A stretch of DNA of 64,000 nucleotides, from NCBI GenBank assembly GCA_017614505.1, contig JAGABT010000001.1:515-64514 (forward strand), read 5' to 3'. The stretch comes from Selenomonadaceae bacterium. GTDB lineage: Bacteria > Bacillota > Negativicutes > Selenomonadales > Selenomonadaceae. This document shows, piece after piece, positions 13,562-32,971 of the stretch (its first letter is position 1; each line of letters opens with the position of its first letter). A program made the translations under genes and the position numbers. The notes under the pieces are model-generated. The model was given only the letters and a program-made list of their open reading frames with translations. It had not been told where the DNA came from and made no database searches.

Positions 13562-13589
13562 GTATATCAAACTGCAGGGAAAAATCCAA

Positions 13590-14234: not shown

Positions 14235-14736
14235 CGAGCGCGGATTTTTTACAATCGTCGGGCTTTGCCTGCTGCTGGCGGTTGCAATTTCAATTCGAGG
14301 CGTACAGGAATTTGAAGGAAATTATTCCGTCGGCGTGTCAAATTCTTTAGCCGAACACGAATTGCAGAATGCGGCTGACAGCGCGCTTATCAAAATGATT
14401 GAAACCGGCAAATACGAAAAAAGTATTATGTCTGACAGGCTCGGAAAAATTTCCATCAACATTAAAACTACGCAAAGCAACATTCGCCGATTCAGGCGCG
14501 AATATGAATCCGGCGGCAAAACCAAGGACATTGCGCTCAATGAAGATAACAGCGACGATACTGGCAAAAATGCGAGTGAACCTGACGATACGCCGGAATG
14601 GCTGAAAATTAAAGCTGACTGTCTGATAAGCATTGCCAGCTGCGAAAATAAAAAATTCGGCGGGACAATTTATCGCTGCTCACAGGCTTACATTATCAAA
14701 GGCGACGACACGGTTTATTTTCTGACGGATTTGTAA
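14206..14736 (+). CDS. Pseudopilin-like protein (non-canonical).
   Basis: ...NNERG|FFTIVGLCLLLAVAI. Candidate GTG start at 14206, in frame with the track ORF 14155. It overlaps the upstream gene. Confidence 0.4.
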   Translation: MKVLKFPANNERGFFTIVGLCLLLAVAISIRGVQEFEGNYSVGVSNSLAEHELQNAADSALIKMIETGKYEKSIMSDRLGKISINIKTTQSNIRRFRREYESGGKTKDIALNEDNSDDTGKNASEPDDTPEWLKIKADCLISIASCENKKFGGTIYRCSQAYIIKGDDTVYFLTDL

Positions 14737-14793
14737 GGCAGGAATAACGCGGCGGCTTGCCGAATTTAAAATTGCCATAAAGGAGGCGAACCT

Positions 14794-15354
14794 ATGGAAA
14801 ATGAAGAGTTCGGCGCGGCGCAAATCGACCTGAACAAACTCGTCGAGCTGATAAACGCAATTCTGGAGCAGCAGGATAAAAATTCGCGGCTCCTCAATCA
14901 AGTCCTGCGCGAAAATATCAATTTCCAAAACCAGGTGCGGCAGGGAATGTACAACGAGCTGGAAGATTTGAAAAAGCAGCAGCGCGGCGAACAGTTCACG
15001 CCGATTTTAAAATCAATCGCGGCAATTTGCGTAGAGTACCGCGCGCTCCTCAATGACGAGACCATTTCAGAAAACTCCCGCCGGTCTTTGCAGCTCATGT
15101 TCGACGAGCTTGAAGACATTCTCGGCGATTACGGCGCAGAAATTTTCAACTCGAACGCAGGAGAGCCGCGCCGCCCGCTCCTTACCAAAATCATAAGCAC
15201 GGTTTCCACCGGCGACCGCAACCAGCATAACACTATCGCTAAAAGCCGTCGCGCTGGCGTCGTTCGCAACGGGCGCCCGCTCTACCGCGAGTTCGTCGAC
15301 GTTTACGTTTTCGACGGCGATAAATCCACGTCCGAATTTGCACGCACTGAATAA
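14794..15354 (+). CDS. GrpE-like nucleotide exchange factor.
   Basis: SD AAGGAGG precedes the ATG. LRENINFQNQVRQ resembles the GrpE LRxxAexeNxRKR helix. PILKSIAAICVEYRALL and the C-terminal GVVRNGRPLYREFVDVYVF resemble the GrpE beta-domain. Confidence 0.6.
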   Translation: MENEEFGAAQIDLNKLVELINAILEQQDKNSRLLNQVLRENINFQNQVRQGMYNELEDLKKQQRGEQFTPILKSIAAICVEYRALLNDETISENSRRSLQLMFDELEDILGDYGAEIFNSNAGEPRRPLLTKIISTVSTGDRNQHNTIAKSRRAGVVRNGRPLYREFVDVYVFDGDKSTSEFARTE

Positions 15355-15387
15355 TTTACCACCGGAAAAACTGGAGGAATTTTTTTT

Positions 15388-17034: not shown

Positions 17035-17043
17035 AATTTTCCT

Positions 17044-17078
17044 GCCCGCTCCGATGAAGGTCGGGGCTTTTTTTATTT
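17044..17078 (+). terminator. Possible weak intrinsic terminator or attenuator after the Hsp70 gene.
   Basis: Imperfect GC hairpin at 17044-17067 (gcccg...cggggc) followed by TTTTTTT (17068-17074). Confidence 0.4.
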
Positions 17079-17087
17079 GAATGCGTG

Positions 17088-17096
17088 TGCTATAAT
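17088..17096 (+). promoter_or_regulatory. Extended -10 promoter (TGcTATAAT).
   Basis: tgtgctataatc at 17086-17097 is the same 12-mer as at 60526-60537. Confidence 0.5.
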
Positions 17097-17113
17097 CCGC
17101 GCAGGTGATTTTT

Positions 17114-20100: not shown

Positions 20101-20356
20101 GAAACTTTTCATAGCCTACCGCAAAGACCGCCGCGTCAACGTCGAGCTCAAGGACGAAGAAACGCGCGTCCTCCAGACAATTCCAGAATACAAGCACGGT
20201 TTTCCGAACGGGCGGCTTGAAATTCTTCTGCCTGACGAAATCTGGGAAGGCGTCGACCCAGGCACTGTGATTAAACTCCTGCCCGCCGAGGAAGATGAAA
20301 AATTTTTCGACCTCAAGGAATCTGACCTCGACAGCCTGACAGTTCCGAAGAAATGA
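17114..20356 (+). CDS. Large Hsp70-associated protein: J-like N-terminus lacking HPD, double zinc ribbon, and at least 2-3 FN3-like beta-sandwich repeats.
   Basis: A TTG at 17114 lies 5 nt after AGGTGA (17103-17108). Alternative starts are GTG 17105 and ATG 17138. NIFEMLNLEFDPPDNLKKIRAAYENWKKRL resembles J-domain helices I-II, but no HPD follows. Four CxxC pairs are encoded at 18095-18253. W...VY.V.R...G...Y.Y.V modules lie at about 18746-18994 and 19022-19219. Confidence 0.8.
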   Translation: MANKNIFEMLNLEFDPPDNLKKIRAAYENWKKRLTAELNTTVDPTRLGVIKSELAMDNYIVQIIENARLRQREAEALKQIRVEQLRLYIDLQRGNTSGTLQVNQSQIKHIRDKLKLSAATIEATYREQGFIVKPERSTKSIADKLNGFFIADSVMEELRKSFADFQTVPDEKNYPWSANVSNLYELAYYLEHQIEPSADFYKRRDTDDLREIFRDEAKKVSAPIPAWQSIKALLNLAQTQIFNSDDNRFKYDHSLRIERLSDFFAKLKSAPEIFKRDKYFADNCINRIRRTFPNLLNYELSAALYNKVAGLLNDPYESISDDNENFFCMTCSNCGAFENFRTREEAERASCKVCGETFYAECPKCGKKVPANADHCPACDFSLSELRRFNYYVDHANVMLDLLDRSAKSFEGSLEVVMAEIIDNLSKAKVAKPESPELTKIEWRIHKISAENKKRELIKWAEAKLPGLNTHPDTAVSACMEILRRIKDYRPARDRLRLIKPKKPLSAEAVIHKSSKSSALQNTGTATVLGRISVNAKSSSTSLVAPSYNLTCTVNWQPDNDLGVVYTVVRKIDGIPQNYRDGVVIVEGTDKIEADDNDIKPGVFYGYAVFATRLGAISEPATCTAVFYSDIDENRLLAKTEDGHCSFTWNLPSDNCLGVRIIRSDKDGNTVVVADCTQSPFVDRLVKNRKQYQYCLQCVYYSAAEVVLNRAKFLAEASSENFNRVWKIDQAFRYSKGLTITMTPELPPRQIKNLEYKVVDNRVRFSWQSTGDFELLFKEIPADKKISAETGKIFDAAKLEEILGEGKILNRAESSDQFCEFELTGDIIKIAAVSATTHSALVDEIITIANVEDCEIDAEKTQIVGRDLKLVLKNLPKNIYMIHYRISTDEDDEIYATVEDARERHMNRIYASKYERDSFIMQPHLPQRELFVTVIGEYKLKDGTTIYSEPSTLAVNNRPREEISYRFEWGKSGLFNKKNLAKNCKLIVESKAESTPKLFIAYRKDRRVNVELKDEETRVLQTIPEYKHGFPNGRLEILLPDEIWEGVDPGTVIKLLPAEEDEKFFDLKESDLDSLTVPKK

Positions 20357-20365
20357 GGTGACGCT

Positions 20366-21772
20366 ATGCGAGATGCTATTAGCCAAATTCTCGAAATCAT
20401 AACGAATAATTTCCCGAATGGCATACGCGACGACTTCATCGACATGAACCGTGTCGCGAAAATTTACTCGGAGAATCACGCGGGTGAAAATATTTCGCGG
20501 GATTTTGTTGCTGACTTCATTCGTGCGAACGGGATTGAAAAAGACGGGCGTTTTTATTTCATTTTCGGCGCCGCTTCTGAAAAACTCCTGCGGTTTATCG
20601 CTGAAATTTTGGACTCCAGTTTTATCGCCTACTATTCCAAAATCTACGAGTGCCACGCTAATTTTTTCGAGAGCTTGCATATTTTCTCGCCAGAAGTTCT
20701 TAGAAAAATTCTGCAGCGGATTGATATCGACAAGGAACATTTTTATTTCTCGGATTTTTGTTCCGCAAGAAAAATGAAATGGGCTGACTACGAAGCGGCG
20801 GAGTGGCTAGAAAACGAAGTTGCAAGAATTTTCATAGCCGCGGATAAAGCTCTTGCGCTGGAAGATTTGCAGGAAAAAATTCCCTACGTGCCGGCTGAAA
20901 AAATTTCTGAAGTTCTCTCTGACGCTCAAAAATATTTTCCGACGCGCGACGGCAAATATCTTCCCAATTCCAAAATCCAGTTCGACATCGACGAAATTCG
21001 CGCGGCTAAACGCAAAATAATCGCCAGCATAAACGCGAACGGTTGCGCTTCCACCGAGGAGTTCAGTTTAGCGTCTAACTTCGCACTCAATCCCGAACTT
21101 AGCGAAAAAGATTTGCGCCGCCTGATTTACGGCAGATTTTTCTCCGACTTAACCATACGCGGCAAAAAATTCTACAGGCAAGGCGCCGCCACTTCCACCA
21201 GCCAGACTAAAACTCTGCGCGAATTTATCGCCGGTCAAAATGAACTGACTGCCAACAAACTTTTTGCCTTCGCTGAAAGTATTGGCGCCGCCGTACATGT
21301 TACGTTATCCGTCGCCTACGAAACGATGGTTCGCGTCGATAAAAATCTTTTCGTTAAAGACGCGATGATAAAATTCGACGTTGCCGCTATCGACGAGGCG
21401 CTGGCTCCGTTCGTGCAGAAGAAAATTATTTCGCTGCAGTCCGTCACGAGTTTTACCGGCTTCCCGCCCGTCGAAGGCTATTCCTGGAATTTGTTCCTGC
21501 TCGAAAGTTTTCTGCGCAAGTTCAGCGAAAAGTACGTTTACGTCAAGCCCGCCACCAACAGCTCGAATCTCGGTGCAATTCACCCCAGCGCGATGAAATT
21601 TAAAGACTATCTCGACGTTCAGGCGGCGGTTATCCTTCAGGAAAATGTGCCGCTAGAAAAATCTGCCGTCGATGAGTTTCTGATGAATCACGGCTTCAGG
21701 GGCAAGCGCAGGGATAAAGTTATCGCGCGAATTATCGCCAGAGCTCAAGAATTTATTGAGGAAAGTTTCTAA
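20366..21772 (+). CDS. Hypothetical 468-aa protein, translationally coupled to brxP.
   Basis: SD GAGGTGA precedes the ATG. The stop overlaps the brxP start (TAATG at 21770-21774). I recognise no motif. Confidence 0.75.
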   Translation: MRDAISQILEIITNNFPNGIRDDFIDMNRVAKIYSENHAGENISRDFVADFIRANGIEKDGRFYFIFGAASEKLLRFIAEILDSSFIAYYSKIYECHANFFESLHIFSPEVLRKILQRIDIDKEHFYFSDFCSARKMKWADYEAAEWLENEVARIFIAADKALALEDLQEKIPYVPAEKISEVLSDAQKYFPTRDGKYLPNSKIQFDIDEIRAAKRKIIASINANGCASTEEFSLASNFALNPELSEKDLRRLIYGRFFSDLTIRGKKFYRQGAATSTSQTKTLREFIAGQNELTANKLFAFAESIGAAVHVTLSVAYETMVRVDKNLFVKDAMIKFDVAAIDEALAPFVQKKIISLQSVTSFTGFPPVEGYSWNLFLLESFLRKFSEKYVYVKPATNSSNLGAIHPSAMKFKDYLDVQAAVILQENVPLEKSAVDEFLMNHGFRGKRRDKVIARIIARAQEFIEESF

Positions 21773-24048
21773 TGTACAGCTACGAATTTGATGAGGAAAC
21801 CGGCGGGCTTCTGCTAAAGGATACCGAGGCGGCAATGTCTAAGGAGCCACGTCCAGTTTACGCCGAGGAAATGAATATTCTGGGCTTCGACCGCCGCTTG
21901 AACTACGAAAATCAAAATGATGTTCCCTACCTTTGGGCGGAGGCGGGGAATTATTTTTATCGTGGAAAAAAAATCGCCGTCGTCCGAGGCGGCTCGCTCT
22001 ACGAAAAACCTGCGCTGGAATTTGCTGAGGAGCTGCCGGCTGAAAAACTTTTGCCCGTCGACTTGAAAAAGATGTCCGAGAAAAATTCTGAGCTCATGGA
22101 AAATCTGCGCCAATCGACTATCAAGCGCATTTACAATTACTGGCGCGAGCGGCAGAAAAAACTTGACTGCTTCCACGTCGCGTTCAGCGGCGGCAAAGAT
22201 TCTGTCGTCCTTCTCGATTTGGTCAAGCACGCCCTGCCGAAATCCGCCTTTATCGTTGTCTTCGGCGATACCCATATGGAATTTCCCGACACCTACAAAA
22301 TCGTCGACGCGGTTGAGGCGCAGTGCAAGGCGGAAGGCATTGGTTTTTACCGCGCCGAATCGAAAATGCTCCCAGAGGAAAGCTGGAAACTTTTCGGTCC
22401 GCCGTCAACCGTTTTGCGCTGGTGCTGTTCCGTACACAAAGCCGCCCCCCAGACTTTGAAAATCCGCGAAATTTTGAACAAGCCCAATTTCGTCGGCGCT
22501 GATTTTGTCGGCGTTCGCGCTCAGGAAAGCGTCCGGCGGGCGGGCTACGACGTGGAAAATATCGGTATGAAACAGCGCGGGCAATATTCCCACAACTCAA
22601 TTCTTGAATGGGGTTCGGCGGAAATCTGGCTGTACATTTTTGCGCACGGTCTGCCAGTCAACGAAACCTACAAAAAAGGCAACTCTCGCGCGGGATGTCT
22701 TTTCTGCCCCATGAGCAGCGACAGGGCGAATTTTTTCCGTAACAACGCCTATCCGACCGAAGTCAGCCAGTTCACAGGTTACATTGCCGAAAATGTCACC
22801 GATGAAAATGTTGATTCGTACATAACAAACGGCGGCTGGATTAATCGCAGGAACGGCAGGGACTTGAAAAATCCAGTCGCCAACTACCGCGAAGAAATTT
22901 CCGGCGAATATTTCTGCATTACCGTAACAAATCCTAAAACCGACTGGCGCGAATGGATTAAAACGCTCGGCGAGACTGTTTTTCCCTACGAAGTTCAGGA
23001 ATCTGACGATAAAACCGTCGTCGCGAAATTCAAAGCCGTCTACGACAAAACGCCCACTGCGAAAATTTTCAAATTCGTTTTCCATAAAGTGGCGGCGTGC
23101 AAAGGCTGCAGAGTCTGCGAAGCGAATTGTCCGCACGGCGCTATTTCCTTCAAGGACGGCTTGCACGTCGACGAAAAAAAATGCGTCCATTGCTTTCAGT
23201 GCCACGCGATTGACAGAGGCTGCCTTGTTTATCATTCAAAAGAATTGCCGCTGGAAGGAGATAAAAAATTGAAACAGAGTTTAAATACTTTTGCCGACCA
23301 TGCCCCAAAGACCGAATGGCTGAAAGATTTTTTCGCCGCGCCAGATTCTTTCATGAAAAAAAATGACCTCGGTAAAAACCAGTTCGATTTCTTCCGGCGT
23401 TTTCTTTATGATTCGGAGCTTGCTGACAGAAAAAGCAGAACTGCTACCGGCTTTACCGAGCTTGTCAAAAAAATTGGCTGGAACACAGCAACGGCGTGGG
23501 GATTGATTTTAGTCAATCTTGCTTACAATAATCCGCAAGTTCGCTGGTACGTGGAAAATTTGCCAGTCGGTGAAGGAATTGCGCGCGAAGTTGTCGAAGA
23601 AAATCTACAGGCGGTTGAAGTTTCCGTTAAGGACTCCAAATCAATCGTCAAGGCGTTTAAGCGGCTGTGCGAAATACCGCTTGGCACAGAATTAAAATTT
23701 GGAACTACGACGAGCGAGGGGAAAAATCTTGCGACGCTGAAGCGTACGAAAGCGCGCGTCGACGACGGGCGGGTTATGCTGTACGCGCTGTACAAATTCG
23801 CGGAGGCAACTGGCGGCTGGTATCAGTTCACGCTGACGCGGCTGATGGGCGATTCAGATTCAGCGGGCGTTAGTCCGGCGAAACTTTTCGGCATCGAGCG
23901 CGAGGAAATGGAGCAGTTCATGAACGGCTTATCGACGAATTACCCCGACTTTCTGAACGCGACCTTCACGCACGACCTTGAAAAAATTTCGCTCGTCGCA
24001 GAAAAAACTTCGCAGGACGTTTTGGATTTGTTTGACATTGGGAGTTGA
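21772..24048 (+). CDS. brxP: BREX type 4 BrxP: PAPS-reductase/DndC-like PP-loop ATPase with a ferredoxin-type 4Fe-4S region.
   Basis: FHVAFSGGKDSVVLLDLV PP-loop, RWCCSVHK, and CKGCRVCEANCPHG...CVHCFQCH cluster motifs. Confidence 0.78.
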   Translation: MYSYEFDEETGGLLLKDTEAAMSKEPRPVYAEEMNILGFDRRLNYENQNDVPYLWAEAGNYFYRGKKIAVVRGGSLYEKPALEFAEELPAEKLLPVDLKKMSEKNSELMENLRQSTIKRIYNYWRERQKKLDCFHVAFSGGKDSVVLLDLVKHALPKSAFIVVFGDTHMEFPDTYKIVDAVEAQCKAEGIGFYRAESKMLPEESWKLFGPPSTVLRWCCSVHKAAPQTLKIREILNKPNFVGADFVGVRAQESVRRAGYDVENIGMKQRGQYSHNSILEWGSAEIWLYIFAHGLPVNETYKKGNSRAGCLFCPMSSDRANFFRNNAYPTEVSQFTGYIAENVTDENVDSYITNGGWINRRNGRDLKNPVANYREEISGEYFCITVTNPKTDWREWIKTLGETVFPYEVQESDDKTVVAKFKAVYDKTPTAKIFKFVFHKVAACKGCRVCEANCPHGAISFKDGLHVDEKKCVHCFQCHAIDRGCLVYHSKELPLEGDKKLKQSLNTFADHAPKTEWLKDFFAAPDSFMKKNDLGKNQFDFFRRFLYDSELADRKSRTATGFTELVKKIGWNTATAWGLILVNLAYNNPQVRWYVENLPVGEGIAREVVEENLQAVEVSVKDSKSIVKAFKRLCEIPLGTELKFGTTTSEGKNLATLKRTKARVDDGRVMLYALYKFAEATGGWYQFTLTRLMGDSDSAGVSPAKLFGIEREEMEQFMNGLSTNYPDFLNATFTHDLEKISLVAEKTSQDVLDLFDIGS

Positions 24049-27000
24049 CGGCGTTGGCTTACGAGGCAGATAAATATTTTGACTTCTTCGAGATAGACGA
24101 GGGCTTTTATCCGGAAATTAACGAGAGTTCCATTAAGGACGCGAAAAATCGCTGGCAGAACACTTTCCCGCACGCAGATATTATAGAGCTGCTGAAAATT
24201 ACTGAGCGGGCGCTGTCGCGTGCGAGCAACACCAGCAATAGAAGTTTATGGCTGGACGGCTCCTACGGTACCGGCAAATCGCGAATACTCTGGATGATGC
24301 AAAATCTTTTGTCCTGCCCCGAAACAGAGTTCGACGCCTACTTCGACGAGTACGACAACCTGCGCAGGGAAATTGACCTGCGCGAACGGCTCCGCACAAT
24401 CCGGCGCGGTAAAGTCATCACAGCGCTCCGCTACAGCACCGGCTCCATCACTTCGTCGCAGAAATTAATTTTCGCCGTCTTTGAAAGCCTCACCGCCGCG
24501 CTCAAAAGTTCCGGCTGCAAATTCGACGGCGCTAAAACCCTGTGCGGCAAAATCGCCAACTGGCTCGAAGCCGACGACGCTAACCGCGAGCTTTTCCGCG
24601 CCAAAATTAAGAAACGCGAATACATAATGTCCGGCAGCCTCCGAAACAGAAGCGTCGAAGAAATTATCGAACGCCTCAAAAATCCCAGCGCCAAAGTTTC
24701 TTATTTGGTCGAAGATATTCTCAAACTCGGCGAGCGCGAAGGGATTATCGCCTTCAAAATCGACATGAAGGATTTGACCGAATGGATTGCCGAAGTCATC
24801 GCCGAAAATAATCTGCAGGCGATTGTTTTGTTTTGGGACGAATTTTCCAAGTTCTTCGCCAATAACCGCAACAATCTCGACGAACTCCAGCGGCTGGCGG
24901 AACTTTCCAACATTGCGCCCTTTTATTTGTTCATCGCCACGCACCAGATTGAGGAACTGCCAGGCGCCGGTGAACAGGGTTTCAAAGTCGTCAGCGACAG
25001 ATTCATGACAAAGACAATTACCATGCCCGACAATATTGCCTTTGAACTTATCGGGCACGCGCTGAAAGTCAAGCCCGACGCTCAAAATACGTGGACTCAC
25101 ATTTCCGCCGCGCTCAGAGAACGTACCGCCGAGCCGCGAAAAGCTGTTATGAAATTTGATAAACTCCACAACGAAAAAATTTTGACTGACCTTTTGCCGA
25201 TTCACCCAATGACCGCAATTCTGCTGAAAAATCTCTCGGTATACTTCGCCTCCAATCAGCGGAGCATTTTCAATTTCATAAAGAACACCGACCCGAAAGT
25301 TAAGGCATTCCAGGATTTTATCAATACGAAAAGCCCGCTCAACGGCGATTTGCTGACGATTGATTATCTGTGGAATTTTTTTTATGAGAGCGGCACAGAC
25401 GAACACGGCGGTAGCGTCGGGCGTATGAATTTGCGTCCGTCAATCCGCGCGATTCTCGATTCCTATGCGCTCAACGAAAATAATCTCAGCGCCGACGAAA
25501 AAATTGTTTTGAAGGCGCTTCTTCTGTTTCAGGCAATTAACCAGGAGTCTCACGGTGTCATTGAACTTTTCCACCCCACTGAAAAAAATCTTGAACTGGC
25601 ATTTACCGGCGTCGCTGACATGGAAAACGGGCGCGCCGTCGCTATCGCAAACAATCTCGTCCGCAAAGATATTTTGTTCAAAAAGCCAGGCAAAATTGAA
25701 ACTTTCGCGGTTATGGCACTCGGCAGCGACTTCGCTGAAATCGAACGCCTCAAAAAAGACATTGCTGATAGAGTGCGAACTGCCGCGCTGCTCGAAGGCG
25801 CTGAACTAATCAAAGCTATGGAACTTGAACTTTCGCAGGCGCAGAAAGCCCGCTACGTTTTAGTTCCCGTTACCGCCGACAATTTCACGCTGACGATAAA
25901 CCGCCTCACCAACGAAGTCGAAACTTACCAAATCAAAGTCATCGTTTGCATTGCCCGCAACGAGGACGAACAGCATAAAATTCACAATCTGCTAAGCGGC
26001 GCGCTGAGTAATGAGCGCTACGACGGCTTAGTTTTTATCGACGCGTCGTCCAATACGATGAGTCAGGACATTTTCACGCGCTGGGTAGAAAATTCCGCCA
26101 GCGAACAGTACTGGCGCGGCAAGGACAACGCGCTCGCCGATAAGATGAAGGATAACGCCGTCGACTGCCTTAAGGAATGGAAAGGGTCTTTTGCAAAGGG
26201 TTCCTTCGTCTACTACCACGCCACGAAAACCGGCGACCGCGAAAAAATTTCCTGCCAGAATTTTGACGGCGTTAAGATGGAGATCACAGCAAACGTCCGC
26301 CGCCTTTACCCTTACTCCTTCGACGACGCTGATATTACCGCCACGCTTTTTCAGGTTACGAGTTTTAAAAATTTCGCTAAGGCGGGCGCCGAGCAAACCG
26401 AATATCAAATGCTCAAGCTCAAGGATATTAAAACCGTTTTGGGCGACGTCTGGCAGATGTCCCAAAATTACTGGGAAGTTTATCCGACCTTGAGTATTTC
26501 GCGGCTGAAAATCGAACTGGACGCGCTGATTAAATCTGAAATTGAAAGTGACGTCCGCATTTCCTTCGACGATATTTTCAGCTTCCTGCTCGAACGCGGG
26601 TTCATGCCGGTGAACATTTACGCGTTTCTGACGGGCTTTCTGCTGAAGGAATACGCCGGCGACCCCTACAGATTCAGCGCGGGGCTCGACGGGAATTTTG
26701 GCGGCGCGATGAATTCCGGCAAGCTGGCGGAATATGTTGCCGAGAGCATTAAGCAGGCGCAAAGCCAGTCGAAGAATTACCGCCCGAAATACCTTGAAAT
26801 TATGTCGCAGAATCAGCGGCAGTTCATGGAATTTGCGTCCAAAATTTTCGACGTGCAGGAAGATATTTCGGTGGAACAGAGCGCGCAGAAACTTCGGCTC
26901 AAGCTGATAAATCTCGGCTGCCCGATTTGGTGCTACGTCGACGCGGCGCCGGATAAGTACAAGGATTTTCTGCGGCTGCTGGCGGAAATTGCCAATTCCA

Positions 27001-28244
27001 AAGAGGCAATCAGCGTTTCGGCACTGGCTGAGCGCGCCGGACAGTTTCTGATGAATAATCCCGTGGCGTTCTACGACATGAAAAATTTCCTGACCGCGCA
27101 GAATGGTCGCGAAATTTTTACCGACTTCCTGAGCGGTTTCGACGGCGGGACGATTATCGAACTGGCGCAGGAAATTGGCGTCGAAAATACCGTGGCGGAA
27201 TGCCAGCGGCGCATTACTGCCGGCGACAGCATTTGGCTCCACGATAAGGAAACTGCCGAGGGTGAACTGCGCAAATTAATCGTCGACTACAAAATTATTC
27301 TAGCGAGCCGGAATTTCGGCAGGGACGGCAAATCGTTCAGCGCCTGCGTTCAAAGCTGGCAGAGTTTGTGCCGGTACAGTTTGAAAATCCCTGCCGACGT
27401 GCTTGGCGACTACTACCCGCCGCTGAAAAGTTTCTTCGCGATGCTAAAGGAACTTACGGAACGCGGCGAAATTCCTCAGAGCAAGCGGGAAAATTTTTTG
27501 AGCCAGCTTACCGACAACGCCGAGCAAATCCAAGACGCAATTTATGAGCCGCTGAAAGTCCTGCGCGAAAAATATTCCTACCAGCTCGGCGGCTTGAACG
27601 AGGAAGAAATACAATCGCTGTACAGCAACCTGCCGAATAATTCGTTCACCGATTCGCAGGGGCATTACCACAAAAATGTTGCGGATTCTGCGAAAAAAAT
27701 GCAGAGCGCTCAGCTTCGGATCAAACTTTTGAATTTGTGGTTTGAACTCACGCAAAGCAAGTCGCCACGCGAATGGTCGAACGCTCATCGCACGCCGATT
27801 CTGGCAATGGTTCCAGATTCGGAGCGACAAAACGCGCGGAAAATTTTTGAAACTGTCATGGCGACTTCGCCGGAGGAAAAAGATGTTCGCGCCGCTATCG
27901 AGTACTTTGAACAGCGTCCGAAATTTCTAAGCGCGCTCAATGACGCTCGGAAAATCGAGGAGGCGTTCAGCGTGGTGGTTATCGGCGAGTACCGCAGTTT
28001 TCTGAAGGACAACGACGAAATTCGCGATGAGCTTGAGCGGAAGTTTTCCCGCGAAGCCTATGATTGGCACAATGCTACGGAACTCGTGAAAAATTTCGCT
28101 GAAAATAAATATTACACGGGCAGCGCGCACGATAAGGTTACGGAACGGGTTGAGCGGATGTCCGCCGAATCCGCGAAGAAACTGCTGGTTGAGTTGGTGG
28201 ACAAAGATTTTGAAGTCGGCTTGAAAATTTTGAAGGAGTCCTGA
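24045..28244 (+). CDS. brxC: BREX BrxC/PglY large P-loop ATPase.
   Basis: 1399 aa. Walker A is GSYGTGKS and Walker B-like is IVLFWDEF. It sits between brxP and pglZ. The start is TTG 24045 (overlapping the brxP stop) or TTG 24054. Confidence 0.78.
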   Translation: MTALAYEADKYFDFFEIDEGFYPEINESSIKDAKNRWQNTFPHADIIELLKITERALSRASNTSNRSLWLDGSYGTGKSRILWMMQNLLSCPETEFDAYFDEYDNLRREIDLRERLRTIRRGKVITALRYSTGSITSSQKLIFAVFESLTAALKSSGCKFDGAKTLCGKIANWLEADDANRELFRAKIKKREYIMSGSLRNRSVEEIIERLKNPSAKVSYLVEDILKLGEREGIIAFKIDMKDLTEWIAEVIAENNLQAIVLFWDEFSKFFANNRNNLDELQRLAELSNIAPFYLFIATHQIEELPGAGEQGFKVVSDRFMTKTITMPDNIAFELIGHALKVKPDAQNTWTHISAALRERTAEPRKAVMKFDKLHNEKILTDLLPIHPMTAILLKNLSVYFASNQRSIFNFIKNTDPKVKAFQDFINTKSPLNGDLLTIDYLWNFFYESGTDEHGGSVGRMNLRPSIRAILDSYALNENNLSADEKIVLKALLLFQAINQESHGVIELFHPTEKNLELAFTGVADMENGRAVAIANNLVRKDILFKKPGKIETFAVMALGSDFAEIERLKKDIADRVRTAALLEGAELIKAMELELSQAQKARYVLVPVTADNFTLTINRLTNEVETYQIKVIVCIARNEDEQHKIHNLLSGALSNERYDGLVFIDASSNTMSQDIFTRWVENSASEQYWRGKDNALADKMKDNAVDCLKEWKGSFAKGSFVYYHATKTGDREKISCQNFDGVKMEITANVRRLYPYSFDDADITATLFQVTSFKNFAKAGAEQTEYQMLKLKDIKTVLGDVWQMSQNYWEVYPTLSISRLKIELDALIKSEIESDVRISFDDIFSFLLERGFMPVNIYAFLTGFLLKEYAGDPYRFSAGLDGNFGGAMNSGKLAEYVAESIKQAQSQSKNYRPKYLEIMSQNQRQFMEFASKIFDVQEDISVEQSAQKLRLKLINLGCPIWCYVDAAPDKYKDFLRLLAEIANSKEAISVSALAERAGQFLMNNPVAFYDMKNFLTAQNGREIFTDFLSGFDGGTIIELAQEIGVENTVAECQRRITAGDSIWLHDKETAEGELRKLIVDYKIILASRNFGRDGKSFSACVQSWQSLCRYSLKIPADVLGDYYPPLKSFFAMLKELTERGEIPQSKRENFLSQLTDNAEQIQDAIYEPLKVLREKYSYQLGGLNEEEIQSLYSNLPNNSFTDSQGHYHKNVADSAKKMQSAQLRIKLLNLWFELTQSKSPREWSNAHRTPILAMVPDSERQNARKIFETVMATSPEEKDVRAAIEYFEQRPKFLSALNDARKIEEAFSVVVIGEYRSFLKDNDEIRDELERKFSREAYDWHNATELVKNFAENKYYTGSAHDKVTERVERMSAESAKKLLVELVDKDFEVGLKILKES

Positions 28245-28246
28245 GC

Positions 28247-30148
28247 GTGGAAACTTTGAGCGTTGCCGCCGCCACAGAAAAAATTCGAGCTTACCTGAAA
28301 CGTGATATTCCTCGCCCGTACTTCGTGATTTCTGACGGCGCCGATGAATGTGCGGAATTTCAAAAAATTTTCAGCGGAACTCTCGCGCAGATTTACATTT
28401 CGGACTTTTGCGCGGGCGATTCGCCGCTTGATAATGATTTACTCGTCGAGAGACTGGACGCGTTGGAACGCGACACGATTTGTTTCGGTCTTGGCGGGTA
28501 TATTTATTTTACCGCGCAGGAAGATATTTTGCGGGAACTGCAGGACAGGAATTTCAAGCGGAAAGTGATTTTTATTTGCAGCGGCGTTGCGAATTTGCTT
28601 GAGCGGCTCGCTGAGGAAGATTCAAAATTCCGCGCGAATCAGATTTGCCGCGTTGCTGGCAGTGGCAGTTTTTCCGTCGTGAGTTACAGCGCGAATTTGA
28701 ACGTTCCAACCGACGCTAAAAATTTTTCTGCACTGCTTAAGCTGGCGGAGAGCGGCAGTCGTTCGATAACTGTGCAGACGGATTTGCCGCTGGAAAATGT
28801 TCGCGAGATAACCAGTTTCTACGACGCGATTAAATTTCGTGAGCCTGATTTCAGCGCGCCGCCAGACGCTTTAAGTGCTCAGCAGTGTCAGGAATATTTT
28901 TCAGACGATAACTGCACAGGCTACCCGCCGGAACATTGGCGGAGTTTCGCGGCTGGCTTCAAGGGCAAAATCCTCAACCGTTACTTGAAATTCGTCTTTG
29001 AGCATTCGGCGGGCTACGAAGATTATTTGCGGAATTTGTTCTTCGCGCTGTTCGACGCTGACGATAAAAATTTTGCGGAATTTTACGCGCTGAGGAAAGC
29101 CGCCGTCAAAAATATTTCGTCGCCGTATCTTTCCGAGTACGTCGCGCGGGTGGAAAAATCCGCCACCGATGCCGTAAAATTTCTGACGGATAACACCGCC
29201 GCCGAACGCCGCGCTATGATTCGAGCAGTGCAGGGTAAGGAAAAAATTCCGGCGGCTCTGGAGAAAAATTATCCCGCGCTGGCTGATTATCTGGCGGACT
29301 TCGACTACGGCGACGAGGAACTCACAGAATATTTTCGGCGGTACAGGAAAATCAAGCTGCTTAACGTCGACGACGAAAATTTCAAGCGGCGCGTCAGGGA
29401 ACTGGCGCTCAATCGACCGTTTAACAGGTTCGAGACGCGGCAGAAACTTTTGGAACGCGCTGGCGGGAACGCTAAACTTTACTGGCTGGACGCGCTGGGC
29501 GCAGAGTTTTGCGGGTACATTCAGGCGCGGGCGGTTCAGTTCGGACTTCACGCGGAAATTGAAATTGCCCGTGCGGATTTGCCGACGCTGACTTCGCAGA
29601 ATAAATATTTCTACGACGATTGGCGCGGCGCTAAGTTCGACAAGAACCAGCAGCTGGACGAGCTGAAACATTCGCCAGAAAAATTCGACGCCGACGGAAA
29701 ATGCTCTGCGCCGACCTACCTTGATGCGGAACTCGAAATTATCGGTAAAGTTATCGAGGAAATAAAAAATGCGCTGGCAGTTGGCGACGCCGATAAAATT
29801 ATTTTGACTTCCGACCACGGCGCCAGTCGGCTCGCGGTTATGTACGGGCGCGAAAATAAGTTCAGAATGAACTCCGTCGGCGAACATTCTGGGCGCTGCT
29901 GCCCTATAAACTACCTCGACGCCAGACCTGACTGCGCCAGCGAAGAAAATGGCTACTGGGTGCTGGCGAACTACGACAGATTCAGCGGCGGGCGTCTTAG
30001 CTCGGTCGAAGTACACGGCGGCGCGACGCTCGAAGAAATTTTGGTGCCGGTAGTTGAATTTTCACTGCAGGGCGCTGAAACTTCGCAGGCGGAGAAAATT
30101 CCTGCGCCGCTTGAAAATCTTGACGAGGGCTTTGACTTTTTTGAATGA
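28247..30148 (+). CDS. pglZ: PglZ alkaline-phosphatase-superfamily protein.
   Basis: ILTSDHGASRL motif near the C-terminus. The GTG start is 2 nt after the brxC stop, with SD GAAGGAG. Confidence 0.82.
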   Translation: METLSVAAATEKIRAYLKRDIPRPYFVISDGADECAEFQKIFSGTLAQIYISDFCAGDSPLDNDLLVERLDALERDTICFGLGGYIYFTAQEDILRELQDRNFKRKVIFICSGVANLLERLAEEDSKFRANQICRVAGSGSFSVVSYSANLNVPTDAKNFSALLKLAESGSRSITVQTDLPLENVREITSFYDAIKFREPDFSAPPDALSAQQCQEYFSDDNCTGYPPEHWRSFAAGFKGKILNRYLKFVFEHSAGYEDYLRNLFFALFDADDKNFAEFYALRKAAVKNISSPYLSEYVARVEKSATDAVKFLTDNTAAERRAMIRAVQGKEKIPAALEKNYPALADYLADFDYGDEELTEYFRRYRKIKLLNVDDENFKRRVRELALNRPFNRFETRQKLLERAGGNAKLYWLDALGAEFCGYIQARAVQFGLHAEIEIARADLPTLTSQNKYFYDDWRGAKFDKNQQLDELKHSPEKFDADGKCSAPTYLDAELEIIGKVIEEIKNALAVGDADKIILTSDHGASRLAVMYGRENKFRMNSVGEHSGRCCPINYLDARPDCASEENGYWVLANYDRFSGGRLSSVEVHGGATLEEILVPVVEFSLQGAETSQAEKIPAPLENLDEGFDFFE

Positions 30149-30160
30149 CGGGAGACAGCG

Positions 30161-31600
30161 ATGGAACAGCGACTGAGAAAAATTTTTTCCGACATGATAG
30201 TTTACAAGGATTTGAAGAACAGCAACTTTTTTTCCGCGCTGAGTCTGCCGTCGTTTATGCGTGACTGGCTGCTGAGGCGCTTCGAGGACACCGACGGCAA
30301 ATTCGATACCGACGAACTTTCAGATTTCGTGCGGCGCTTCATTCCCAAAAAAGACGAATGGAAGGCGATTAAAAGCCGAATCGTTATGGATAACGAGCGC
30401 GTCAAACTGCTGGCGAAAATTTCAATCGAAATTGACGTAGCGAGCGGCGCGGCGTCATTTTCCCTGCCGGATTTCGGACTTTCCGCCAGCGAAACGATGA
30501 TTGACGAAAGTATCTGGCAGCTCTACAAGGACGAACTAGTCAACGGCAGCGAGGTCTGGGGCATGATTGAGCTCGGTTACCGCCCGCCCGATTACGATAC
30601 GCGCGCGAAGGTTACCGGCAAAATCCGTCTGCTCAAGTTCAAAAATTTCTGCCCCTACAAAATCAATCTCGATTTCTACAAGGACGCGCGGAAAAATTTT
30701 TCGTTCGAGGAATGGCTGGAAATTCTCCTTGGCGCGATGGACTACAATGCGGCGGGCTACACTCGCGAAGAAGAAAAATTAACAATGTTGACCCGTCTTT
30801 TGCCCTTCGTCGAGAAACGTTTGAATCTTATCGAACTGGCACCGAAAGGTACCGGCAAATCCTACGTTTTCGGGCGCGTCAGTCGCTTCGGCTGGCTCTC
30901 CAGCGGCGGCGTCATGAGTCGCGCCAAAATGTTCTACGATATGCAGAAACGTCAGGAAGGACTCGTCGCCTATAACGATTTCGTGACGCTCGACGAGGTG
31001 CAGACGATTTCTTTCAGGGACACCGACGAAATGCGCGGCGCCTTGAAGGGCTATCTGGAAAACGGCGTCTACACCGTCGGCAACCACTCCAACAACGCCG
31101 AGGCGGGCGTCATTCTTTGCGGCAACATTTCGAAAAGCGTCATGGATATGGACGGCGCCGAAAATATGTTCGACGAACTTCCGCCGGTCTTCCACGAATC
31201 CGCGCTGATTGAACGCTTTCACGGCTTCATCAAGGGCTGGAACATTCCGCGCATGAATGACGATATGAAAATTTGCGGCTGGGCGCTCAACTGCGAATAT
31301 TTCTGCTCGATTCTGCACGAACTACGCGAGGATATCAGCTACCGCGCTATCGTCGACCAGCTTGTTAAGGTGCCGGAAAAAGCTGACACGCGCGATACCG
31401 CCGCTGTCAAGCGCATTGCGACGGCGTATTTGAAACTGCTTTTCCCCGACGTTCGCCGCGTTGAAGATGTCGACAGGGAAAAATTTCAGCGCCACTGCCT
31501 TGAGCGTGCCTGTCAAATGCGGGCGACGATTCGGCACCAGCTCGCTCTGCTAGACGTTGAGTACGCCGGCAAGGAAATTCCGAAGTTCGAGGTAATTTGA
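30161..31600 (+). CDS. brxL: BrxL-like AAA ATPase (short ~470-aa form; no obvious Lon protease domain).
   Basis: Walker A is LAPKGTGKSYVF and Walker B is FVTLDEVQ. It sits immediately after pglZ. Confidence 0.68.
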   Translation: MEQRLRKIFSDMIVYKDLKNSNFFSALSLPSFMRDWLLRRFEDTDGKFDTDELSDFVRRFIPKKDEWKAIKSRIVMDNERVKLLAKISIEIDVASGAASFSLPDFGLSASETMIDESIWQLYKDELVNGSEVWGMIELGYRPPDYDTRAKVTGKIRLLKFKNFCPYKINLDFYKDARKNFSFEEWLEILLGAMDYNAAGYTREEEKLTMLTRLLPFVEKRLNLIELAPKGTGKSYVFGRVSRFGWLSSGGVMSRAKMFYDMQKRQEGLVAYNDFVTLDEVQTISFRDTDEMRGALKGYLENGVYTVGNHSNNAEAGVILCGNISKSVMDMDGAENMFDELPPVFHESALIERFHGFIKGWNIPRMNDDMKICGWALNCEYFCSILHELREDISYRAIVDQLVKVPEKADTRDTAAVKRIATAYLKLLFPDVRRVEDVDREKFQRHCLERACQMRATIRHQLALLDVEYAGKEIPKFEVI

Positions 31601-31807
31601 TTGGCTAAGAAAATTTTCAGCTGCATTGCCTGCGGGAAAAGCCCGCTGACGAAGAATGAAGTCGGTATAACGAAAAAGCTTTTGGGCGCGAAGTCCAGAA
31701 ATTTTTATTGCATAGATTGTCTGGCGGATTTTCTGGAGGTCGAGCCGCAGGATATTCTTGACAAGATTGAGGAATTTAAAAATGACGGTTGCAGGCTCTT
31801 CGAGTAA
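31601..31807 (+). CDS. Small zinc-ribbon protein (68 aa).
   Basis: The TTG start abuts the brxL stop. There are two CxxC pairs (CIACG ... CIDCL). Only a non-ATG start is available, so confidence is moderate. Confidence 0.45.
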   Translation: MAKKIFSCIACGKSPLTKNEVGITKKLLGAKSRNFYCIDCLADFLEVEPQDILDKIEEFKNDGCRLFE

Positions 31808-32933
31808 AATAATTTACGCGGACAACGCGGCGACGACGCCACTTGACGCGGACGCGCTGGCGTTGATGATTGAACTTCAGAAAAATTTTTTTGCAAATCC
31901 TTCGGCGGCGTACAATCTTTCGCGCCCACTGAAAAAAGTTCTGCAGGAGTCGCGGGAAAAAATTGCCGCGTGCATTAACGCTGAGCCGTACGAAATTTTT
32001 TTCACGTCGGGAGGCTCCGAGAGCGATAACTGGGCGATAAAATCTGTCGCGCTGGAAAATTTGAGCGAGCGTCCAGACATAGTTACTTCCGGCATTGAGC
32101 ACAAGGCGATTCTAAATTCCTGCGCGGCGATGAAAAATTTGGGCTGCACCGTGACGAAAGTGCCAGTCGATTACACCGGCACAGTCAGTCCCGCCGCTCT
32201 GAGGACGAAAATTTCACGGCGCACAAAAATTGTTTCCGTCATGCTGGCGAATAACGAAGTCGGAACGATTCAGCCAGTTAAATTGCTCGCGGAAATTGCG
32301 CACGACAAGAGAAAAATTTTCCACACGGATGCGGTACAGGCAGTCGGACACATTCCGATTGACGTAGAATTTCTGGGGGTGGATATGCTGTCAGCTTCGG
32401 CGCACAAGTTCAACGGACCAAAAGGCGTCGGCTTCCTGTACGTTCGCGAAGGACTGGAAATTTTGCCGTATATTGACGGCGGCGGGCAGGAATTTTCTAA
32501 GCGCGCTGGGACGGAAAACGTTCCGGCCATTGCGGCGATGGCTCTGGCTCTCGAAAAAAATTGCCGCGCAATGCGGAAGACTGCCGCAAAACTTTCTGCC
32601 TGCACGAAAACTCTGATTGACTGCCTCAGGAACAGCGGCGCGGATTTTATCGTGAATGGTGACGAAAATCGTTTGCCTGGGCATTTGAGTTTGTCTTTCA
32701 GAAACTGCGACGGCGAAACTTTAATGCACCGGCTCGACTTGAAAAATATCTGCGTGTCGACGGGTTCTGCGTGCAATTCGCGGCGGACGGAAATTTCTCA
32801 CGTGCTGAAGGCGATGAAAGTTCCGCGCGAGTACGTTCGCGGGACGATTCGCGTAACTTTCGGCAGGAACAATTCCGTCAGCGAGGCGGAAACTATCGGT
32901 AGAAGTTTGTCGGAAATATTTTCTGAGAAATAA
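31782..32933 (+). CDS. Class V aminotransferase / cysteine desulfurase (NifS/IscS/DndA-like).
   Basis: IYADNAATTP, the PLP-lysine motif SAHKFNGPKG, and the active-site STGSACNS. ATG 31782 has SD GAGGAA. It overlaps the small ORF by 26 nt. Confidence 0.85.
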   Translation: MTVAGSSSKIIYADNAATTPLDADALALMIELQKNFFANPSAAYNLSRPLKKVLQESREKIAACINAEPYEIFFTSGGSESDNWAIKSVALENLSERPDIVTSGIEHKAILNSCAAMKNLGCTVTKVPVDYTGTVSPAALRTKISRRTKIVSVMLANNEVGTIQPVKLLAEIAHDKRKIFHTDAVQAVGHIPIDVEFLGVDMLSASAHKFNGPKGVGFLYVREGLEILPYIDGGGQEFSKRAGTENVPAIAAMALALEKNCRAMRKTAAKLSACTKTLIDCLRNSGADFIVNGDENRLPGHLSLSFRNCDGETLMHRLDLKNICVSTGSACNSRRTEISHVLKAMKVPREYVRGTIRVTFGRNNSVSEAETIGRSLSEIFSEK

Positions 32934-32971
32934 AAAAAGCGCCGGTATCGATTTTGACACCGGCGTTTTTT
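32932..32971. terminator. Bidirectional intrinsic terminator.
   Basis: A7 run, a 7-bp GC stem (32940-32946 / 32959-32965), then T6 (32966-32971). It lies between the convergent desulfurase and sdhB genes. Confidence 0.75.

What the first reader, a model, noticed from the sequence alone, without database searches (positions are those of the whole stretch)
31601..32933. Zn-ribbon peptide and NifS/DndA-like cysteine desulfurase co-transcribed behind BrxP/BrxL: a sulfur-donor hint for BREX type 4
In Dnd phosphorothioation, the cysteine desulfurase DndA (or IscS) delivers sulfur to DndC, a PP-loop 4Fe-4S PAPS-reductase-family enzyme.

Here a DndC-like BrxP shares a terminator-less transcription unit with a group I cysteine desulfurase. 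That enzyme has the PLP motif SAHKF and the active-site motif STGSACNS. It has no NifU, IscU or ThiI partner next to it.

The desulfurase start overlaps a 68-aa double-CxxC protein, and that protein's start abuts the brxL stop. This supports the idea that type 4 BREX marks self DNA by a sulfur-dependent modification rather than by methylation.
Basis: inference. Interest (0 to 1): 0.7.

Follow-up and report, generated by a model that had tools for sequence, protein, structure and literature searches.

The report
Dedicated sulfur donor of BREX-4
The small zinc-binding protein and the cysteine desulfurase are real, conserved parts of a type 4 BREX phage-defence operon that marks DNA with sulfur, but both the sulfur chemistry and this gene association were already published in January 2026.

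Summary
A 68-aa protein with two CxxC pairs (31601-31807) and a group I cysteine desulfurase follow brxP-brxC-pglZ-brxL without a break. The desulfurase most likely starts at ATG 31782 and ends at 32933. A strong terminator closes the unit at 32940-32965.

The link to BREX-4 is not chance.
- In two independent samples of related loci, the zinc protein directly follows brxL in 75/76 and 40/41 loci.
- The desulfurase follows in 64/72 and 36/38 loci.
- These loci span several phyla and many different chromosomal neighbourhoods.

So this is a dedicated DndA/SspA-like sulfur donor, not a housekeeping NifS.

Yuan et al. (Nat Commun 2026) showed phosphorothioate synthesis by BREX-4. [quoted passage not shown]

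Small additions from this work:
- The zinc protein tracks brxL more tightly than the desulfurase does.
- It has an invariant fifth cysteine in a C-terminal GCxLF tail.
- In rare bacterial proteins and in proteins on contigs classed as viral, it occurs as the C-terminal domain of PAPS-reductase proteins, which points to BrxP as its partner.
- A tandem winged-helix gene (20366-21772) is the conserved first gene of the cassette.

The parts
17088..17096 (+). Promoter-like extended -10 element (TGcTATAAT) directly after a terminator. It is the probable start of the operon in this genome.
   Evidence: Read from the sequence. The promoter role is inferred, not tested.
17105..20356 (+). Gene for a 1083-aa protein of unknown function. 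It is the first gene of the transcription unit here and is specific to this lineage, not part of the conserved cassette.
   Evidence: Only a weak double zinc-ribbon Pfam hit, a weak match to a PHROG of unknown function (phrog_19315, 1.3e-05) and no PDB match. It is present upstream only in the window's own lineage (L096, L097, L016). In L102 the genes upstream of the 468-aa gene homologue are unrelated.
20366..21772 (+). Gene for a 468-aa tandem winged-helix protein. It is the conserved first gene of this BREX-4 cassette, and its stop overlaps the brxP start.
   Evidence: No Pfam hit. A homologue sits directly upstream of brxP in 65/68 metagenome loci and 13/13 assessable genome loci. The AF2 model has pLDDT 83. 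Foldseek matches multi-winged-helix proteins such as UFL1 and the SelB C-terminal region, with E from 1e-5 to 6e-4.
21772..24048 (+). brxP, encoding a PP-loop PAPS-reductase domain, a 4Fe-4S-type cysteine region and a C-terminal DUF4007/SspB-like region.
   Evidence: PADLOC BrxP at 1.5e-237 and SspD at 1.4e-15. Pfam PAPS_reduct at 5e-28 and Fer4_6 at 1e-6.
24045..28244 (+). brxC (the BrxC/PglY ATPase, an SspC homologue).
   Evidence: PADLOC BrxC at 6e-226 and SspC at 3.6e-19.
28247..30148 (+). pglZ, type 4.
   Evidence: NCBIfam BREX_PglZ_4 scores 322 bits against a cut-off of 140. PADLOC PglZ at 1.6e-87.
30161..31600 (+). brxL, the short form: BrxL_N plus the ATPase domain, with no Lon protease domain detected.
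   Evidence: TIGR02688 scores 429 bits against a cut-off of 329. Pfam BrxL_N and BrxL_ATPase match.
31601..31807 (+). Gene for a 68-aa zinc-stapled three-helix (HTH-like) protein. It has C8, C11, C37 and C40 plus an invariant C64 in a C-terminal GCxLF tail.
   Evidence: Alignments. It sits directly after brxL in 75/76 and 40/41 loci. The AF2 model has pLDDT 79 and three helices. The domain is fused to the C-terminus of PAPS-reductase proteins in P0484, P0490, P0440 and L192.
31782..32933 (+). Gene for a group I PLP-dependent cysteine desulfurase (383 aa), with K209 in SAHKF and C331 in STGSACNS.
   Evidence: Pfam Aminotran_5 at 8e-74. PADLOC SspA at 4.5e-122 and DndA at 1e-121. NCBIfam NifS scores 421 bits, below its cut-off. 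It follows the zinc-protein gene in 64/72 and 36/38 loci.
32940..32965 (.). Bidirectional intrinsic terminator (10-bp stem, 7 G-C pairs, T runs on both sides) that closes the operon.

Best explanation
The region is the 3' end of a seven-gene type 4 BREX cassette: a winged-helix gene, brxP, brxC, pglZ, brxL, the zinc-protein gene and the desulfurase gene. The cassette sits in a roughly 20-kb island between trpC and the frd/sdh operon of a rumen Selenomonadaceae bacterium.

The desulfurase is the system's own DndA/SspA-type sulfur donor. Using PLP on K209, it takes sulfur from L-cysteine as a persulfide on C331. It then passes that sulfur to the PP-loop/4Fe-4S enzyme BrxP, and it may also build BrxP's cluster. 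[quoted passage not shown] PglZ and BrxL provide the exclusion arm.

The 68-aa protein is a zinc-stapled helix-turn-helix-like module that works with the BrxP catalytic half. It is most likely a DNA-binding or docking subunit of the modification complex.

What is shown: gene content, an intact active site, tight operon coupling, and conserved linkage across phyla. Phosphorothioate synthesis by BREX-4 has also been shown, but in another species.

What is inferred: that this particular desulfurase feeds BrxP, and what the zinc protein does.
For: Family assignments come, and the intact catalytic motifs.

Operon coupling is tight. The spacing from the brxL stop to the zinc-protein start is mostly -11 to +6 nt. 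The spacing from the zinc-protein stop to the desulfurase start is mostly -26 to +18 nt, across 77 species.

Linkage counts:
- Zinc protein directly after brxL: 75/76 and 40/41 loci.
- Desulfurase after it: 64/72 and 36/38 loci.

Every close desulfurase homologue that was looked up lies in a BREX-4 cassette, and the downstream genes differ each time.

In rare proteins the zinc domain replaces the DUF4007 tail of BrxP. P0484 is 42% identical to window BrxP over residues 1-493 and then continues into the zinc domain. The domain also ends a 376-aa PAPS-reductase protein on contigs classed as viral.

Literature:
- PMC12914056 shows phosphorothioate synthesis that needs brxC and, from reconstitution, brxP, plus a desulfurase supplied by the host.
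Against: - No experiment has tested a BREX-4 system that carries its own desulfurase or the zinc protein. The validated B. salyersiae system relied on a host SufS.
- Pairwise identities of the desulfurase correlate only weakly with those of BrxL (Spearman r = 0.22) and BrxP (r = 0.09), whereas BrxL against BrxP gives r = 0.82. The desulfurase may therefore have been exchanged or re-recruited.
- About 5-11% of cassettes keep the zinc protein but lack the desulfurase, so the desulfurase is dispensable where a host enzyme can substitute.
- The zinc protein's fold matches in the PDB are not significant (best E = 1.7).
- It could not be checked whether the genome holds another desulfurase.
Confidence: 0.8

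Rival explanations
1. The desulfurase is the cell's housekeeping NifS/IscS for Fe-S cluster and thio-cofactor synthesis, and it merely happens to lie next to the BREX island.
For: Its best NCBIfam match is NifS, at 421 bits. The nearest solved structures are generic NifS/IscS-type enzymes, not DndA or SspA. In L010 it stays intact although brxP is cut by an IS605-family element.
Against: It is linked to brxL and the zinc protein in 64/72 and 36/38 loci across many phyla and insertion sites. It overlaps the zinc-protein gene and shares its terminator. There is no NifU/IscU scaffold gene beside it. Its scores are below the equivalog cut-offs for NifS, IscS and DndA.
Confidence: 0.03
2. The desulfurase's main job is to assemble and repair the 4Fe-4S cluster of BrxP, as DndA does for DndC, and the sulfur placed in DNA comes by another route. 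This does not exclude the best explanation.
For: BrxP has a conserved ferredoxin-like cysteine region (Fer4_6 at 1e-6; invariant cysteines). The You et al. [quoted passage not shown]
Against: In the Dnd and Ssp systems, the cysteine desulfurase is described as the sulfur donor for the modification itself (PMC12839542; PMC10853773). There is no scaffold protein in the cassette.
Confidence: 0.25
3. The 68-aa zinc protein is a transcriptional regulator of the operon (an HTH-type repressor or activator), not part of the enzyme machinery.
For: The predicted three-helix bundle gives weak matches to HTH and wHTH DNA-binding domains such as MntR, GerE, AsnC and sigma region 4. PMC12839542 describes it as similar to HTH-type transcriptional regulators.
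Against: It is encoded at the distal end of the operon and is translationally coupled to brxL and the desulfurase, which is unusual for a regulator. It occurs as the C-terminal domain of PAPS-reductase enzymes, including ones on contigs classed as viral and lying among DNA-modification genes. Its C-terminal GCxLF tail and all five cysteines are invariant. None of the fold matches is significant.
Confidence: 0.15
4. The zinc protein is a persulfide relay. Its invariant C-terminal cysteine (C64 in GCxLF) accepts sulfur from the desulfurase and delivers it to BrxP.
For: C64 is invariant in 78 and 30 sequences and in every fusion protein, and it always lies 3-5 residues from the C-terminus. The gene sits between brxL and the desulfurase and overlaps the desulfurase start. 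The domain is fused to the sulfur-inserting PP-loop enzyme.
Against: There is no resemblance to known relay proteins (TusA, SufE, SufU, rhodanese). The protein persists in cassettes without a dedicated desulfurase, although a host enzyme could serve there. This is pure inference.
Confidence: 0.15

Closest known systems
Type 4 BREX with its cysteine desulfurase and small zinc-finger protein, as surveyed in PMC12839542 (NAR 2026) and validated for phosphorothioate synthesis in PMC12914056 (Nat Commun 2026)
   Same: The core is the same: brxP-brxC-pglZ-brxL. The desulfurase and a small zinc protein lie downstream. BrxP has the same architecture of PAPS reductase, Fe-S region and DUF4007.
   Different: Nothing essential differs. 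In the clade sampled here, the desulfurase is found in about 90% of loci and the zinc protein in about 98%. The survey's figure for the desulfurase across all type 4 taxa is 56%. The experimentally validated B. salyersiae system has no dedicated desulfurase.
SspABCD phosphorothioation module (SspA desulfurase, SspB, SspC ATPase, SspD PAPS reductase)
   Same: BrxP hits SspD, BrxC hits SspC and the desulfurase hits SspA at 4.5e-122. The division of labour is the same: sulfur donor, PP-loop enzyme and ATPase.
   Different: The SspB-like part is fused to BrxP. PglZ and BrxL replace SspE/SspFGH as partners. By sequence, the solved Vibrio SspA is a more distant relative (204 bits) than generic NifS/IscS enzymes (about 270 bits). 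No zinc protein is described for Ssp.
DndA-DndC of the Dnd system
   Same: A group I PLP cysteine desulfurase is encoded beside a PP-loop/4Fe-4S PAPS-reductase-family enzyme.
   Different: The DndA equivalog model scores 288 bits against a cut-off of 480. S. lividans DndA (3VAX) scores only 165 bits. According to PMC12839542, BrxP lacks the DndC-specific cysteine dyad. There is no DndD or DndE.
NifS/IscS housekeeping group I cysteine desulfurases (for example Thermotoga NifS-like 1ECX)
   Same: These are the best sequence matches. They share the same fold, the PLP lysine and the SxGSAC active-site loop.
   Different: Scores fall below the NifS and IscS equivalog cut-offs. There is no NifU/IscU partner gene. 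The gene is embedded in a mobile defence cassette.

Membership tests
BREX type 4 | Adjacent brxP (PAPS reductase in place of the PglX methyltransferase), brxC, pglZ and brxL | tested here: met
   PADLOC BrxP at 1.5e-237, BrxC at 6e-226, PglZ at 1.6e-87 and BrxL at 1.5e-222, contiguous on one strand over 21772-31600.
BREX type 4 | Type-4-specific PglZ and BrxL models score above NCBIfam's curated cut-offs | tested here: met
   NF033445 BREX_PglZ_4 scores 322.4 against 140. TIGR02688 BrxL scores 429.3 against 329.3.
BREX type 4 | Phosphorothioate modification of host DNA | not testable with these tools
   Shown for B. salyersiae and other gut isolates by LC-MS/MS (PMC12914056). Not shown for this organism.
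Group I (NifS/IscS/DndA-type) PLP cysteine desulfurase | Class V aminotransferase fold with a PLP-binding lysine (SAHK) and a catalytic cysteine in an SxGSAC loop | tested here: met
   Aminotran_5 at 8e-74. K209 and C331 are present and align with solved desulfurases.
DndA (TIGR03235 equivalog) | Score above the curated equivalog cut-off | tested here: not met
   288 bits against a cut-off of 480. 3VAX scores only 165 bits. The enzyme is functionally analogous to DndA but is not an orthologue by this test.
NifS (TIGR03402) / IscS (TIGR02006, NF010611) equivalogs | Score above the curated cut-off, and an adjacent NifU/IscU scaffold gene | tested here: not met
   NifS scores 421 against 530.75. 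IscS scores 270 against 643 and 283 against 548. No scaffold gene is adjacent.
BREX-4-associated desulfurase plus zinc-finger pair (PMC12839542) | Desulfurase and small zinc protein encoded inside or at the end of the type 4 BREX cluster, conserved across taxa | tested here: met
   Zinc protein in 75/76 and 40/41 loci. Desulfurase in 64/72 and 36/38 loci.
HTH-type transcriptional regulators (for the 68-aa protein) | Significant sequence or fold match to an HTH family | tested here: inconclusive
   No Pfam, NCBIfam, PADLOC or PHROG family matched. The Foldseek best hit has E = 1.7, and the top hits are almost all HTH or wHTH domains.

The most novel reading that the evidence does not exclude
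The 68-aa zinc protein is not a regulator. It is a dedicated subunit of the sulfur-inserting enzyme BrxP. Its invariant C-terminal cysteine (GCxLF-COOH) relays the persulfide from the desulfurase to the PP-loop active site, or tethers the complex to DNA. The same domain, fused to a stand-alone PAPS reductase on contigs classed as viral and lying among methyltransferase genes, would then mark a phage-encoded sulfur-type DNA modification used to evade phosphorothioate-sensing defence.
Probability: 0.15. Interest if true: 0.6.

Novelty: already known. Interest (0 to 1): 0.22.

Why it matters
The finding reaches, from raw sequence alone, a conclusion that took LC-MS/MS and genetics to establish: type 4 BREX marks self DNA by phosphorothioation rather than by methylation.

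Because this was published in January 2026, together with the desulfurase and zinc-finger association, the finding adds little beyond another example from rumen Selenomonadaceae.

The open part is the role of the near-universal 68-aa zinc protein and of the upstream tandem winged-helix gene. The published survey mentions the zinc protein only in passing, and I found no mention of the winged-helix gene in the sections I read. The domain fusions found here make the zinc protein's role testable, with BrxP as the suggested partner.

Tried and rejected
- **Fold search of the zinc protein against the PDB.** Only non-significant HTH-like hits came back, so no family could be assigned.
- **Rosetta-stone expectation.** I expected the zinc domain to be fused to BrxL or to the desulfurase. 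The long hits turned out to be PAPS-reductase fusions instead, so the idea of a BrxL partner was downgraded.
- **Metagenome scan for the genomic context of the BrxP-zinc-domain fusions.** It returned only ordinary BrxP loci. The context of the fusions remains unseen, and the loci were reused as a second linkage sample.
- **Co-phylogeny of the desulfurase with the BREX core.** The correlation is weak (r = 0.09 to 0.49), so strict co-inheritance cannot be claimed.
- **Placing the desulfurase in a tree with housekeeping NifS from the same hosts.** This was not possible because no outgroup sequences from those genomes could be retrieved. Only HMM and PDB score rankings were used.
- **Checking whether the genome has a second desulfurase.** Only the 64-kb window could be scanned, and it has none.
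- **The P0478 family (unknown protein plus zinc domain).** No hit in viral contigs.
- **The 1083-aa upstream protein.** No PDB sequence match, and only a weak match to a PHROG of unknown function.
- **Stop-codon read-through from brxL into the zinc protein.** The two ORFs are in frame here, but the spacing varies out of frame in other loci, so this was rejected.
- **Cultured phages.** They carry PAPS-reductase genes but none with the zinc domain.
Full report
**1. What is in the sequence**

The + strand between 17105 and 32933 is a run of abutting or overlapping ORFs. Profile searches identify four of them as the type 4 BREX core:
- brxP (21772-24048): PADLOC 1.5e-237, with Pfam PAPS_reduct and Fer4 domains.
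- brxC (24045-28244): 6e-226.
- pglZ (28247-30148): NCBIfam BREX_PglZ_4 scores 322 bits against a cut-off of 140.
- brxL (30161-31600): TIGR02688 scores 429 bits against a cut-off of 329.

The brxL stop (TGA, 31598-31600) is followed at once by a TTG-initiated 68-aa ORF (31601-31807). This ORF has a GAGGT ribosome-binding site and the motifs C8xxC11 and C37xxC40.

The next ORF is a class V aminotransferase (Pfam 8e-74).
- Its longest form starts at TTG 31758.
- The ATG at 31782 has a GAGGA site upstream and gives the 383-aa length called in relatives. With that start it overlaps the zinc-protein gene by 26 nt.
- SAHKF (K209) and STGSACNS (C331) are present at 32397-32411 and 32757-32780. They align with the catalytic residues of solved desulfurases.

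A 10-bp, G+C-rich bidirectional terminator lies at 32940-32965. The only other strong terminator is at 17048-17067, and it is followed by a TGnTATAAT element.

The next gene downstream is a convergent frd/sdh iron-sulfur subunit. There is no NifU, IscU or ThiI gene nearby and no second desulfurase in the window.

**2. Is the linkage real?**

*The zinc protein as a family.* It has 265 homologues at E <= 1e-3, all 62-71 aa long and 65-93% identical among the best 120.

*Context look-ups.* Look-ups of zinc-protein homologues and of desulfurase homologues 72-77% identical to the window's always returned brxP-brxC-pglZ-brxL-zinc protein-desulfurase. The genes downstream of that block differed each time:
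- frd/sdh;
- a SACS/helicase protein;
- thrS;
- dihydroxyacetone kinase;
- an ABC-2 permease;
- a 1462-aa AAA protein.

*Sample 1: species-representative genomes.* A scan with a BrxL alignment gave 80 loci, with BrxL 57-95% identical to the window's. They come from Selenomonadaceae, Lachnospiraceae, Oscillospiraceae, Bacteroidota, Desulfovibrionaceae, Flexilinea, Spirochaetaceae, Synergistaceae, Planctomycetota and Cloacimonadota.
- The zinc protein directly follows brxL in 75 of 76 assessable loci. The exception, L037, has an IS3 element there.
- The desulfurase follows in 64 of 72 loci.

*Sample 2: metagenome contigs.* A second sample, anchored on BrxP, gave the zinc protein in 40/41 loci and the desulfurase in 36/38.

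*Gene spacing.* Spacing is that of translationally coupled genes. It is mostly -11 to +6 nt between brxL and the zinc-protein gene, and mostly -26 to +18 nt between the zinc-protein gene and the desulfurase.

**3. What kind of desulfurase**

It is a group I enzyme. NCBIfam ranks the models as follows, all below their equivalog cut-offs:
- NifS first, at 421 bits.
- DndA, at 288 bits.
- IscS, at about 270-283 bits.

PADLOC's SspA and DndA models score equally, at about 405 bits.

Among solved structures, generic NifS/IscS-type enzymes score highest (279 and 267 bits). Vibrio SspA (204 bits) and Streptomyces DndA (165 bits) score lower.

So it works like DndA or SspA, but it is not their orthologue by these tests.

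Its pairwise identities track those of the BREX core only weakly: r = 0.22 with BrxL and 0.49 with PglZ, against 0.82 for BrxL with BrxP. Together with the 5-11% of cassettes that lack it, this fits a replaceable accessory that a host enzyme can stand in for, as the literature proposes.

**4. The zinc protein**

*Conserved features.* Across 78 sequences from the genome sample, the following are at least 95% conserved:
- the four zinc-ligand cysteines (one CxxH exception);
- a CLA motif;
- K55 and F59;
- a fifth cysteine in a GCxLF motif at the extreme C-terminus.

*Predicted structure.* AlphaFold2 predicts three helices at pLDDT 79. Foldseek finds only non-significant matches, almost all to HTH or wHTH domains. 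This agrees with the published remark that the protein resembles HTH regulators.

*Distribution.* The protein is tied to brxL more tightly than to the desulfurase. Eight genome loci and two metagenome loci have it without a desulfurase.

*Domain fusions.* A profile search of 1.84 billion cluster representatives found 584 hits. Most are stand-alone proteins, but a few are long proteins that carry the domain at their very C-terminus.
- P0484, P0490 and P0440 are PAPS-reductase proteins. P0484 is 42% identical to window BrxP over residues 1-493 and then carries the zinc domain where BrxP has DUF4007.
- P0507 carries it after a PglZ-type DUF7863 region.
- P0455, P0478 and P0486 belong to an unknown family.
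- Large contigs classed as viral encode a 376-aa PAPS reductase ending in the same domain (L192 9101-10231). In the related contig L189, where the gene is split into two ORFs, it lies among Dam, D12 and C5 methyltransferase genes and a deoxyribosyltransferase-like gene.

These fusions point to the PP-loop enzyme as the functional partner, rather than BrxL or the desulfurase.

Whether the domain binds DNA, docks the complex or relays a persulfide through C64 is inference. From my own knowledge, other sulfur-inserting PP-loop enzymes such as TtuA also carry flanking zinc fingers.

**5. The rest of the unit**

*The 468-aa gene (20366-21772).*
- Its stop overlaps the brxP start.
- It has no family match.
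- It is conserved directly upstream of brxP in 65/68 metagenome loci and in nearly all genome loci.
- It is the first gene of the cassette where upstream DNA is available.
- Its model (pLDDT 83) is a chain of winged-helix domains.

*Upstream genes that are not part of the cassette.*
- The 1083-aa gene and the GrpE-like and Hsp70-like genes further upstream occur only in the window's own lineage. They are not part of the conserved cassette.
- In this genome, however, the 1083-aa gene appears to share the promoter.

**6. Comparison with what is known**

PMC12914056 (bioRxiv 2024, Nat Commun January 2026) reports four relevant results:
- It detected phosphorothioate dinucleotides in BREX-4 bacteria.
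- It abolished them by deleting brxC.
- It rebuilt them with a plasmid carrying brxP, mcrA and brxC in a host that provides SufS.
- It noted that BrxP is an SspD-SspB fusion and that BrxC is an SspC homologue.

PMC12839542 (NAR January 2026) surveyed 457 type 4 taxa:
- It found a cysteine desulfurase in 255 of them.
- It called the desulfurase a potential sixth core component.

The additions here are modest:
- the near-universality of the zinc protein in this clade;
- its invariant C-terminal cysteine;
- the PAPS-reductase fusions, including those on viral contigs;
- the conserved winged-helix first gene.

**7. Verdict**

This is a real and correctly interpreted feature, and it is an ordinary member of a kind already described. 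Interest is low. The residual interest lies in the untested role of the zinc protein.

Noticed in passing
window 20366-21772 (+): Gene for a 468-aa protein with no family match. It is conserved directly upstream of brxP in almost every related BREX-4 locus and is the first gene of the cassette. It is predicted to be a chain of winged-helix domains (UFL1-like and SelB-C-like). I did not find it mentioned in the sections of the two BREX-4 papers that I read.
   Followed up: partly
L192 9101-10231, and L189-L194 (IMG/VR viral contigs of 60-130 kb): A 376-aa PAPS-reductase (PP-loop) protein whose C-terminus is the BREX-4 zinc domain, ending in EGCKLF. In the related contig L189, where the gene is split into two ORFs, it sits among Dam, D12 and C5 DNA methyltransferase genes and a deoxyribosyltransferase-like gene. 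No BrxC, PglZ, BrxL or desulfurase lies within 10 kb. It may be a phage-encoded sulfur-type DNA modification. Cultured phages carry PAPS reductases without this domain.
   Followed up: partly
window 12700-17067 (+): ORFs 13590-14234, 14155-14736, GrpE-like 14794-15354, Hsp70-like 15388-17034: A truncated DnaK/HscA-like ATPase (only the nucleotide-binding domain matches, residues 4-360 of 548) lies with a GrpE-like protein and small unknown ORFs. They sit between trpC and the BREX operon and end in their own terminator. The module is present only in the window's own lineage (L096, L097). There is a weak PADLOC hit to the candidate defence protein PDC-M61B (2e-9). It may be a separate defence or accessory module.
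   Followed up: partly
window 17105-20356 (+): Gene for a 1083-aa protein with only a weak double zinc-ribbon hit. There is no PDB match, and only a weak match to a PHROG of unknown function. It appears to be co-transcribed with the BREX-4 cassette from an extended -10 promoter at 17088-17096, but it is not conserved with BREX-4 elsewhere.
   Followed up: partly
L010 1-11188 (594-kb metagenome scaffold): A decaying BREX-4 cassette. brxP is interrupted by an IS605-family OrfB/TnpB-like gene and pglZ is split into two ORFs, yet brxL, the zinc protein and the desulfurase are intact.
   Followed up: no
L099-L101 10001-18183: A variant locus. A homologue of the 468-aa protein is followed by a 257-aa protein without a PAPS-reductase domain, then brxC and pglZ. 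There is no brxL, zinc protein or desulfurase. A QueC/NAD-synthase-like PP-loop gene and a DUF1156/SNF2 system lie nearby.
   Followed up: no
P0455 (641 aa), P0478 (563 aa), P0486 (221 aa): An unknown protein family, with members related to one another at 24-36% identity, also ends in the same zinc domain. Its genomic context could not be retrieved.
   Followed up: partly
window 30161-31600 (+): The BrxL of this clade is the short form (479 aa, with BrxL_N and the ATPase domain only). No Lon-protease domain was detected, unlike the roughly 680-aa type 1 BrxL.
   Followed up: no
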